Shown: positions 21,427-23,397 of the stretch, piece by piece
Layout of the letters: each line of letters starts with the position of its first letter
Numbering within the stretch: the first letter of the stretch is position 1
Translations under genes and position numbers: made by a program
Notes under the pieces: model-generated
Told to the model about the DNA's origin: nothing
Databases searched by the model: none
What the model saw: only the letters and a program-made list of their open reading frames with translations
NCBI RefSeq assembly: GCF_030013595.1
Contig: NZ_CP122768.1
Source: Escherichia coli
GTDB lineage: Bacteria; Pseudomonadota; Gammaproteobacteria; Enterobacterales; Enterobacteriaceae
Reading direction: 5' to 3' (one strand)
DNA length: 64,000 bases

Positions 21427-23397
21427 ATGAGACTCAAAAAACGTTATCTCTGCACAGCATTATCACTTGCCTTTACCCAGCAGGCCGTAGCGGCTCAGGA
21501 GAGTGACACGCTGACCGTATGGTCCAGTCCGGTATCATCGACGACGACCACCGTTCTCGATCAACCCACCATGAAGGCCCTGGATAAACAGAATGTCGCT
21601 CAGGCATTAAGTGTCGTCCCCGGCGTGGTGCTGCAAAAGTCAGGCAGCCGCAACGAAGAACAGGTAAAAGTTCGTGGCTTTGATAGTCGGCAGGTGCCGG
21701 TCTATTTCGACGGTGTGCCCATTTATGTTCCCTATGACGGCAACCTCGATCTGGCGCGGATTCTGACCAACAATCTGGGGGCAGTCGAAGTTTCCAAAGG
21801 GTATTCGTCGCTGCTTCAGGGGCCTAATCAGATGGGCGGAGCCATTAATATCACCACCCAGAAGCCAACAAAACCTCTGGAAGCAAATCTGGGATATCGC
21901 CAGGGATGGAGCCGTAGCTAGGACAATGCCTACGATATGCATGCTTCATTTGCCGCCAGCAGCGATCTGGGGTATTTGCAAGTCAGCGGTAGCCAGCTAA
22001 AGCAGGATTTTCTCGGCCTGCCGCATGGTGTAAATAATGATATTGCAGGCAAACACGGTAAGATGATTAATTCATCGGCTGATGATAAACGCGGCATTGT
22101 GAAGCTCGGTTTTACACCACGCGAAAACGATGAATACACATTGACTTACATTAAGCAGGATGGTGAAAAAGATAACCCGCCATACAGTGGAAATAGTGGT
22201 CAAAAATCACGCTACTGGCAGTGGCCAGAGTATGACAAAGAAAGTTTTTATTATCAGGGAACGACCCAACTAAACGATCGTTTTACCCTGAAAAGTCGGC
22301 TGTATCGCGACACCTTTGAAAATACGCTGATGATGTACAACTCGCTGGCTGATTTAAAAAATAAAAAAGGCAGCTACAGCCATTATTCCGATTACAGCGA
22401 CGGTGCCGGGTTACAACTGGCAGCCGATGTGCGTGAAAACGATCTGCTGTCGTTTGCCGTTAACTGGAAAGATGACGTACACCGGGAAAAAGGTGCGCCG
22501 CACGCCGCTTACGATCGCTATGAAGATCGTACCTGGTCGCTCGCCAGTGAATATCAATGGGCTGCTGCCGATAATGTCGACGTCGTGGCTGGAATCAGCT
22601 ATGACTGGCGCGATAGCGTAGAAGCGAAAAAACATGAGAAAGATGGAAGCATCACCCATTATGACGACAACAATCAGTCAGCTTTTAACTGGCAGGTGAT
22701 GGGGAAATACCACTTTGCCAATGAAGACACGCTGGCGCTTTCGTACTATGACCGCACACGCTTTCCGACGCTGAAAGAACGCTATACCACGTCCAAACCT
22801 GCGTATAACCAGATAGCGATTGTTAACCCGCAGCTCAAACCGGAACGCGCGCGCGGGGTGGATTTAACCTGGAATGGTGCCTTCACGCACGACTGGGGGT
22901 TTGAGGTCAGCGTTTACTATAACCGGGTGAGTGATGCCATCCTCTCGCACAATATCGATGCCGATACCATTCAAAATCAGAACAGCGGCACGGTGGATTA
23001 CAGCGGTCTGGATGCCGGTATTAAGGGGAAAATCAGCAATATACTGGATGTAGGATTGAGCTACGCCCTGATCCACGCTGATGCCAAACGCAAAGACATC
23101 GGCAAGATAACCGATCTGCCAACGCAGACAATGACCGCATGGATGACTCTCAAACCGTGGGAGCCGTTAAACGTAACGCTGTCGGAAGAGGCGCGTTCCT
23201 CCAGCTACAGCAACAGTGACGGTTCACAAAAAGCCGCCGGTTTTGCGGTGACCCACATTCGAGCCGATTACACCTTAGGTCATGGCTTCAGCGTCAATGC
23301 GTCGGTCAATAACCTGTTTGATACCAAATATGCCTACAGTGAAGGGTTTATTGAAGAAGGTCGCAATTTCTGGGCAGGTATCGAGTATACGTTCTGA
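21427..23397 (+). pseudogene. TonB-dependent outer-membrane receptor interrupted by an in-frame amber codon at 21919-21921 (plug domain 21427..21918; barrel 21922..23397)
   Basis: Signal peptide MRLKKRYLCTALSLAFTQQAVAAQE, TonB-box-like DTLTVWS, plug region, then same-frame continuation after TAG into a long beta-barrel ending ...WAGIEYTF (terminal aromatic). Both halves are in the same reading frame. Confidence 0.7.

What the first reader, a model, noticed from the sequence alone, without database searches (positions are those of the whole stretch)
21919..21921. In-frame amber codon splits the TonB-dependent receptor between plug and barrel
The receptor reads ...GYRQGWSRS-TAG-DNAYDMHASF... 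with both halves in the same frame, so a single nonsense codon separates a 164-aa plug region from a 486-aa barrel. This is either a recent inactivation of the outer-membrane step while the inner-membrane genes stay intact, a strain-specific polymorphism, or a sequencing error. An intact allele would be the expected state in related strains.
Basis: seen in the sequence. Interest (0 to 1): 0.5.

Follow-up and report, generated by a model that had tools for sequence, protein, structure and literature searches.

The report
Amber-stop pseudogene of TonB receptor
A single C-to-T change at a DNA-methylation hotspot has put a stop codon into an accessory outer-membrane receptor gene of this E. coli lineage; it is a real but ordinary gene-killing mutation that has arisen repeatedly in nature.

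Summary
TAG at 21919-21921 lies in frame in a 656-codon TonB-dependent receptor gene (21427-23397). This is the last gene of an accessory six-gene uptake operon between treA and ymgE. The ancestral codon is CAG (Gln165).

None of about 2,140 complete E. coli genomes that carry the locus has the TAG, including the nearest relatives. It is still not a sequencing error. The exact 164-aa and 486-aa fragments occur on dozens of independent public contigs, and one is 100% identical to the window over 6.5 kb.

The same TAG sits on at least three haplotypes. One of them differs from a CAG-bearing complete genome by that single base in 6,495 bp, so the mutation has recurred.

The mutated base is the second C of CCAGG, the cytosine that Dcm methylates. 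This is the classic context of the lacI amber hotspots, caused by 5-methylcytosine deamination. All four codons in the gene that such a change can turn into amber are found mutated in public assemblies; 3 of 12 control codons are.

Orthologues in many genera are single full-length proteins. The downstream ORF starts inside barrel strand 2 and has no signal peptide. I conclude it is an ordinary, recent, lineage-specific pseudogene.

The parts
21919..21921 (+). Amber codon TAG, codon 165 of the receptor; derived from CAG (Gln)
   Evidence: CAG is present in L001, L002, L003 and L007.
21918..21922 (+). CTAGG, the mutated form of an ancestral Dcm site CCAGG; the changed base 21919 is the second C, the one Dcm methylates
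   Evidence: The Dcm/Vsr context comes from PMC12606429, PMC4924334 and PMC2715241.
21427..23397 (+). Whole TonB-dependent receptor coding region (656 codons), now a pseudogene with one internal stop
   Evidence: Pfam Plug 39-139 and barrel 223-630. AF2 model with a 22-strand transporter fold, Foldseek TM 0.79 to OprC. PGAP labels a comparable allele 'internal stop'.
21427..21918 (+). N-terminal fragment, 164 aa: a Sec-type signal peptide (about residues 1-23) and a TonB-box-like DTLTVWS (27-33), both by inspection, then the plug and barrel strand 1
   Evidence: This exact protein is in public collections on 64 contigs.
21937..23397 (+). Downstream in-frame ORF, 486 aa, starting at Met171 inside barrel strand 2; no signal peptide; probably not a functional product
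   Evidence: This exact protein is on 50 contigs.
21900..21904 (+). Second CCAGG site (codon 159, CAG), intact in the window; mutated to TAG in other public assemblies
22532..22536 (+). CCTGG site (codon 370, TGG), intact in the window; CCTAG amber allele in 21 complete genomes and in several metagenome contigs
22868..22872 (+). CCTGG site (codon 482, TGG), intact in the window; CCTAG amber allele in public assemblies
16983..21401 (+). Five intact upstream operon genes: substrate-binding protein 16983-18005, FecCD/BtuC-type permease 18005-18985, ATPase 18982-19740, class I SAM methyltransferase 19750-20550, ModD 20547-21401

Best explanation
The TAG is a genuine, derived nonsense mutation (Gln165 CAG to TAG, one C-to-T transition). 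It inactivates the outer-membrane receptor of an accessory TonB-dependent uptake operon in this E. coli lineage and leaves a recent pseudogene. The mutated base is the second cytosine of CCAGG, the base methylated by Dcm. The most likely origin is therefore spontaneous deamination of 5-methylcytosine to thymine that escaped very-short-patch (Vsr) repair, as at the classic lacI amber hotspots. Translation should stop after a 164-aa exported fragment (signal peptide, TonB box, plug, first barrel strand). The remaining 486 codons lack an export signal and start mid-strand, so no barrel should reach the outer membrane. The receptor is the last gene and its neighbour ymgE is convergent, so no downstream gene is affected. 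What is shown: the stop, its ancestral state, its rarity, its presence in independent assemblies, its recurrence on at least three haplotypes and the Dcm context. What is inferred: that methylation and deamination caused it, and that function is lost.
For: Stop and frame. Ancestral CAG: the closest intact allele (NRZ14408) differs in the coding sequence by this base plus one synonymous site, and the nearest genome over 25 kb (17 SNPs and 1 indel) has CAG. Rarity: the 57-mer with TAG has no exact match among 2,143 records, while the CAG 57-mer is exact in 1,656. The 30-mer centred on the T gives no match; the same method finds 21 genomes for another allele, which serves as a positive control. 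Not an error: the exact 164-aa and 486-aa products are on 64 and 50 contigs from NCBI, Logan and ENA. L004 is 100% identical to the window over 6,495 bp, with 22 similar contigs. Recurrence: L005 (14 samples) carries the TAG and differs from complete genome 118UI (CAG) by that single base in 6,495 bp. A third background, L040/L041, also carries it. The tracts shared around the site between backgrounds are at most 105-206 bp. Hotspot: only 5 CCWGG sites occur in the coding sequence, and 4 can give amber by 5mC deamination. All 4 are seen as true internal stops in public assemblies, against 3 of 12 non-Dcm control codons; Fisher p = 0.019. Literature: PMC12606429, PMC4924334 and PMC2715241. Not a split gene: 30 orthologues of 642-681 aa read through this position.
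Against: C-to-T transitions are common anyway, and amber alleles also occur at non-Dcm codons of this gene (Q79, Q145, W161). The Dcm origin is therefore probable, not proven. The enrichment test used exact-sequence look-ups on only two protein backgrounds, capped listings and partly metagenomic contigs. It counts haplotype backgrounds, not phylogenetically resolved events. Very short recombination tracts (under about 200 bp) could in principle have moved one TAG between backgrounds. Whether this strain has an active Dcm, and whether it carries a suppressor tRNA, cannot be seen in the window; there are no tRNA genes in it. Loss of function was not measured.
Confidence: 0.85

Rival explanations
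1. The stop is a sequencing or assembly error in this one record, and the gene is really intact.
For: No complete RefSeq E. coli genome has the TAG. The nearest relatives have CAG.
Against: The exact truncated products are on 64 and 50 contigs from several sources. An independent short-read assembly is 100% identical over 6.5 kb, with 22 similar contigs. The same TAG is on two further haplotypes in other samples.
Confidence: 0.02
2. The stop marks a genuine two-gene arrangement. Plug and barrel would be made separately and assemble into a working transporter, as shown experimentally for separately exported FhuA cork and barrel (recalled from the literature, not checked here).
For: Both halves are intact ORFs in the same frame. 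An AGGA lies 13 nt upstream of ATG 21937.
Against: All 30 aligned orthologues and more than 99% of E. coli alleles are single polypeptides. The 486-aa ORF begins in the middle of barrel strand 2, lacks strand 1, and shows no signal peptide by inspection. The split is rare and of multiple recent origins.
Confidence: 0.02
3. The stop is read through, either by an amber suppressor elsewhere in the genome (a supE-type tRNA-Gln would restore the wild-type Gln165 exactly) or by natural leakiness, so some full-length receptor is still made.
For: CAG-to-TAG is the change that supE suppresses to the wild-type residue (established genetics). Position 165 tolerates K, A, E, S, R, Q, D and G in orthologues, so any inserted residue would probably be tolerated.
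Against: There is no tRNA gene in the 64 kb. Suppressors are rare in natural isolates (general knowledge). The stop is not conserved in any orthologue.
Confidence: 0.04
4. The mutation is real, and its spread and recurrence reflect positive selection for losing the receptor, for example escape from a phage or bacteriocin that uses it, rather than neutral decay at a hotspot.
For: Many independent disabling alleles of this one gene exist: ambers at codons 79, 145, 159, 161, 165, 370 and 482; a TGA at codon 482; a -1 frameshift (46 contigs); a +1 frameshift in the nearest relatives; and a deletion in all Shigella flexneri contigs examined, whose 185-aa product is on 570 contigs. The upstream genes are usually intact. 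The Q165 amber reaches dozens of samples.
Against: No ligand, phage or colicin is known for this receptor. With hundreds of thousands of sequenced E. coli, rare loss alleles of any non-essential accessory gene are expected. Other operon genes are also occasionally broken (L023, L035). No test of selection was done.
Confidence: 0.1

Closest known systems
lacI amber hotspots at CCAGG (Coulondre, Miller, Farabaugh and Gilbert 1978), as reviewed in PMC12606429
   Same: Same sequence context (second C of CCAGG), same change (CAG to TAG by a G:C to A:T transition), same species, and the same proposed cause: deamination of Dcm-made 5-methylcytosine that escapes Vsr repair.
   Different: That work used a laboratory mutant collection in a K-12 reporter gene, with methylation status known. 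Here the events are natural alleles in wild lineages of an accessory gene, and methylation is inferred.
PGAP 'internal stop' pseudogene of the same receptor in complete genomes such as UPEC132 (W370 amber)
   Same: Same gene and locus, a single amber codon at a CCWGG site, and the rest of the operon intact.
   Different: Different codon (TGG to TAG on the other strand's methylated C). It is present in 21 complete genomes, whereas the Q165 allele is in none.
Shigella flexneri allele of the same receptor (185-aa plus 486-aa products)
   Same: Same gene inactivated, and the same 486-aa downstream ORF is called by gene finders.
   Different: The cause is a 16-bp deletion upstream that shifts the frame, not the amber codon. 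The site there reads AGT CAG. The deletion was in every S. flexneri contig examined, and its 185-aa product is on 570 contigs.
22-stranded TonB-dependent transporters of solved structure (OprC, PhuR, BtuB, Cir)
   Same: Plug plus barrel fold, TM-score 0.74-0.79, similar size.
   Different: Only 17-18% identity. The substrate of the window's receptor is unknown and no NCBIfam equivalog cut-off is reached.

Membership tests
TonB-dependent outer-membrane transporter | N-terminal plug domain followed by a beta-barrel domain in one polypeptide | tested here: met
   For the restored sequence: Pfam Plug (E 7e-21) and TonB_dep_Rec barrel (E 1e-33). The AF2 model resembles OprC, BtuB and Cir. In the window itself the polypeptide is interrupted.
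TonB-dependent outer-membrane transporter | Signal peptide, TonB box near the mature N-terminus, C-terminal aromatic residue | tested here: inconclusive
   By inspection only: MRLKKRYLCTALSLAFTQQAVA/AQE, DTLTVWS (W32 is invariant), and C-terminal ...EYTF. No dedicated predictor was run.
Pseudogene by nonsense mutation | In-frame stop inside a reading frame that is uninterrupted in alleles and orthologues | tested here: met
Pseudogene by nonsense mutation | The stop is the derived state | tested here: met
   CAG is in 1,656 exact 57-mer matches and in the nearest relatives. The TAG haplotype L005 is one base from a CAG genome.
Pseudogene by nonsense mutation | Loss of the protein's function | not testable with these tools
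   Inferred from the missing barrel and the lack of an export signal on the downstream ORF.
Dcm (CCWGG) 5-methylcytosine deamination hotspot mutation | The mutated base is the second C of CCWGG in the ancestral allele and the change is C to T | tested here: met
   AGC CAG GAC became AGC TAG GAC.
Dcm (CCWGG) 5-methylcytosine deamination hotspot mutation | Recurrence: the same change arises independently | tested here: met
   Three haplotype backgrounds carry it. One is a single-base neighbour of a CAG genome over 6,495 bp.
Dcm (CCWGG) 5-methylcytosine deamination hotspot mutation | Excess over comparable non-CCWGG nonsense sites | tested here: inconclusive
   4 of 4 Dcm codons against 3 of 12 control codons are found mutated, Fisher p = 0.019. 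Sampling was uneven and was not resolved on a phylogeny.
Dcm (CCWGG) 5-methylcytosine deamination hotspot mutation | The strain has active Dcm and the site is methylated | not testable with these tools
   dcm lies outside the window, and no methylation data are available.
Split (two-gene) receptor | The split is conserved in orthologues, and the downstream part has its own start and export signal | tested here: not met
   Orthologues are all full length. The downstream ORF starts inside strand 2 and shows no signal peptide by inspection.
Suppressed or recoded stop codon | A cognate suppressor tRNA or a conserved recoding signal | not testable with these tools
   There is no tRNA in the window and the rest of the genome is unavailable. 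The stop is not conserved in relatives.

The most novel reading that the evidence does not exclude
The four CCWGG codons of this receptor gene act as a built-in, Dcm-driven 'off' switch. Amber alleles arise at elevated rate and are then repeatedly favoured by selection, for example by a phage or bacteriocin that uses this uncharacterised receptor. Methylation-dependent mutation would then supply adaptive receptor-loss variants in natural E. coli populations.
Probability: 0.08. Interest if true: 0.45.

Novelty: already known. Interest (0 to 1): 0.15.

Why it matters
It matters mainly for annotation. In this lineage the receptor should be called a pseudogene with an internal stop, not two genes ('outer membrane receptor' of 164 aa and 'TonB-dependent receptor' of 486 aa), which is how public records currently list the fragments. 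The strain should be assumed to lack the outer-membrane step of this accessory uptake system. A small secondary point is that one accessory gene gives a clean natural-population illustration of the 1978 lacI result: amber alleles are found at every Dcm-site codon that can produce one. This is a known mechanism and opens no new question.

Tried and rejected
1. I used contig counts of exact N-terminal fragments as a measure of mutation frequency at Dcm and control sites. This was rejected as a direct measure, because many fragments are genes cut by contig ends rather than stops. All four 134-aa cases shown, and most 78-, 144- and 160-aa cases, were of that kind. I counted only verified internal stops and haplotype backgrounds instead.
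2. I searched for what the operon transports. NCBIfam gives only sub-threshold hits to siderophore, heme, B12 and copper receptors, and BtuC/FecCD-type transporter parts. The closest structures are generic transporters. Two literature searches found nothing on this locus.
3. I looked for regulation signals. There is no riboswitch or other Rfam family upstream of the operon. The best Fur-box and Zur-box matches (13/19 and 14/23) are no better than in shuffled sequence.
4. I looked for an amber suppressor. There are no tRNA genes in the window and the rest of the genome is out of reach.
5. I looked for the source genome among complete RefSeq E. coli. It is absent; the nearest are two pig isolates at 99.93%.
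6. I tested recombination as the explanation for the TAG on several backgrounds. It is not excluded, but the shared tracts are at most 105-206 bp, and L005 is a one-base neighbour of a CAG genome.

Full report
**The observation**

The window has TAG at 21919-21921. Read from ATG 21427, the frame runs 656 codons to TGA 23395-23397 and has this single internal stop at codon 165. The upstream piece is 164 aa. The next in-frame ATG (21937, Met171) opens a 486-aa ORF.

**The gene and its locus**

The restored protein has a Pfam Plug domain (residues 39-139) and a TonB-dependent receptor barrel (223-630). An AlphaFold2 model built on 30 orthologues has mean pLDDT 84.8 and pTM 0.85. It is a standard plug-in-barrel transporter, closest to OprC, PhuR, BtuB and Cir (TM 0.74-0.79, 17-18% identity).

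In the model, barrel strand 1 is 151-162, the turn is 163-164 and strand 2 is 165-178. The stop therefore lies one strand into the barrel, not exactly between plug and barrel. The 486-aa ORF starts inside strand 2.

The gene is the last of six co-oriented genes between treA and the convergent ymgE:
- substrate-binding protein, 16983-18005;
- BtuC/FecCD-type permease, 18005-18985;
- ATPase, 18982-19740;
- class I SAM methyltransferase, 19750-20550;
- ModD, 20547-21401;
- the receptor.

The five upstream genes are intact in the window. The locus is accessory: 2,149 of 5,426 complete E. coli genomes have it. Its substrate is unknown. No NCBIfam equivalog cut-off is reached. No riboswitch and no above-chance Fur or Zur box precedes the operon. 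Two literature searches found nothing on it.

**Ancestral state and rarity**

The closest intact allele (strain NRZ14408) differs from the window's coding sequence at two bases only. One is C instead of T at 21919, giving CAG (Gln). The other is a synonymous site. The nearest genome over 25 kb is a pig isolate that differs by 17 SNPs and 1 indel, and it also has CAG.

A 57-mer centred on the T has no exact match in 2,143 records, whereas the CAG version is exact in 1,656. A 30-mer that can only seed if the T is present finds nothing. The same design finds 21 genomes for a different allele, so the method works.

Thirty orthologues from Citrobacter to Pseudomonas are single proteins of 642-681 aa.

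**Not a sequencing error**

The exact 164-aa product is on 64 contigs and the exact 486-aa product on 50 contigs, from NCBI, Logan and ENA. One Logan assembly is 100% identical to the window over 6,495 bp including the TAG, and 22 similar contigs were not shown.

**The mutation has recurred**

The same TAG is on a second haplotype, L005, seen in 14 samples. L005 differs from the window at 56 mismatches plus a 12-base indel in 6.5 kb. It differs from the complete genome of strain 118UI, which has CAG, at exactly one base in 6,495, the C/T itself. A third background, which also carries N154S, has the TAG too (L040/L041).

The sequence shared around the site between these backgrounds is at most 105-206 bp. 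Independent recurrence is the simplest reading. Very short recombination tracts cannot be formally excluded.

**Why this base: a Dcm site**

The ancestral sequence is AGC CAG GAC, which contains CCAGG. The mutated base is the second C. In E. coli, Dcm methylates exactly that cytosine. Deamination of 5-methylcytosine gives thymine, and the resulting T:G mismatch in CTWGG/CCWGG is the substrate of Vsr very-short-patch repair (PMC4924334 and PMC2715241). The classic lacI study found that amber hotspots, over-represented about ten-fold, were G:C to A:T changes at the second C of CCAGG (Coulondre et al. 1978, as described in PMC12606429). The window's mutation is that same event.

I tested this within the gene. 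The coding sequence has five CCWGG sites. Deamination on one strand or the other can make an amber codon at four of them: Q159, Q165, W370 and W482. Sixty-one G:C to A:T changes could make a stop anywhere in the gene.

Exact look-ups of the predicted N-terminal fragments, followed by inspection of the DNA, found true internal ambers at all four Dcm codons:
- Q159 on at least two backgrounds;
- Q165 on three backgrounds;
- W370 on several metagenomic and isolate contigs and in 21 complete genomes, where PGAP labels the gene 'internal stop';
- W482 on three backgrounds.

Of twelve control codons that are not Dcm sites, three had true stops: Q79, Q145 and W161. Nine had none: Q89, Q131, Q135, Q185, Q190, Q193, W347, W378 and W394. 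That is 4 of 4 against 3 of 12, Fisher p = 0.019.

This supports a hotspot but is not rigorous. Look-ups were limited to two protein backgrounds, listings are capped, some contigs are metagenomic, and backgrounds are not the same as phylogenetic events. Raw contig counts could not be used, because many fragments are genes cut at contig ends.

**Consequence**

The 164-aa product keeps the signal peptide and the TonB-box-like DTLTVWS (both by inspection), the plug and one strand. The rest has no export signal. Function is therefore almost certainly lost, although this was not measured. There is no polarity, since the gene is last and ymgE is convergent. A supE-type suppressor would restore Gln165 exactly, but the window has no tRNA genes and the rest of the genome is not available.

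**Wider picture**

This receptor is broken in many ways across the species. Beyond the ambers above, there is:
- a TGA at codon 482;
- a -1 frameshift at codon 160, on 46 contigs;
- a +1 G in a G-run in the window's nearest relatives, annotated 'frameshifted';
- a 16-bp deletion in all Shigella flexneri contigs examined, whose 185-aa product is on 570 contigs.

Whether this reflects selection for loss or the expected background for a dispensable accessory gene in a very deeply sampled species was not tested. I rate selection at about 0.1.

**Verdict**

This is a real, recent, lineage-restricted nonsense pseudogene. It was most probably made by 5-methylcytosine deamination at a Dcm site. Both the mechanism and the kind of event are textbook, and interest is low.

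Noticed in passing
window 37664-38379 and 62331-63046: Two 716-bp copies of an IS200-type element, 100% identical and in inverted orientation 24 kb apart. Each has an Rfam STnc490 match and an ORF resembling a Y1 transposase (MGDEKSLAHTRWNCKYHIVFAPKYRR...). The first sits between dsbB and umuC and is absent from the nearest relative, which instead has an ISVsa5 between umuD and hlyE. Inverted identical copies could mediate inversion of the 24-kb segment.
   Followed up: partly
window 21773-21776 compared with L003 21773-21777: The two closest complete genomes (pig isolates HCP5S3_I2 and LCP30S3_I5) have an extra G in this G-run, and their receptor is annotated 'frameshifted'. It is either an independent inactivation or a homopolymer error of long-read assembly.
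   Followed up: no
L006 (Shigella flexneri GCA_038417605.1), receptor gene: S. flexneri carries the same operon with a 16-bp deletion around window 21860-21879. It gives overlapping 185-aa and 486-aa ORFs. The 185-aa product is on 570 contigs, so the deletion may be fixed in that lineage.
   Followed up: partly
window 19750-19765 (start of the methyltransferase gene): The SAM methyltransferase is 266 aa in the window's lineage and 270 aa in most others. A 12-base indel separates the window from the other haplotypes somewhere in the 6.5 kb compared; I infer from the gene lengths that it lies at the 5' end of this gene.
   Followed up: no
Public contigs L014-L019, L021-L023, L025-L027, L042-L051: Many metagenome and short-read contigs end within a few codons of receptor codons 79, 135, 145, 160 and 164. 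This produces truncated 'proteins' that mimic nonsense alleles. The breaks may reflect assembly-graph forks where co-existing strains differ.
   Followed up: partly
summary (plasmid records): Eight matches to the receptor gene lie on records labelled as plasmids, although the locus is otherwise chromosomal between treA and ymgE.
   Followed up: no
window 16653-16982: The 330-bp AT-rich region upstream of the operon has no Rfam riboswitch and no Fur-box or Zur-box match better than shuffled sequence. How this putative metal-chelate uptake operon, with its unusual methyltransferase-ModD pair, is regulated and what it imports remain open.
   Followed up: partly
L035 812-1624; L023 46-803 and 1622-2475: In some assemblies other genes of the operon are split as well: the methyltransferase in L035, and the ATPase and modD in L023. 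Decay is therefore not confined to the receptor, although L023 comes from a short 3.3-kb contig, so these splits may be assembly or sequencing errors.
   Followed up: no
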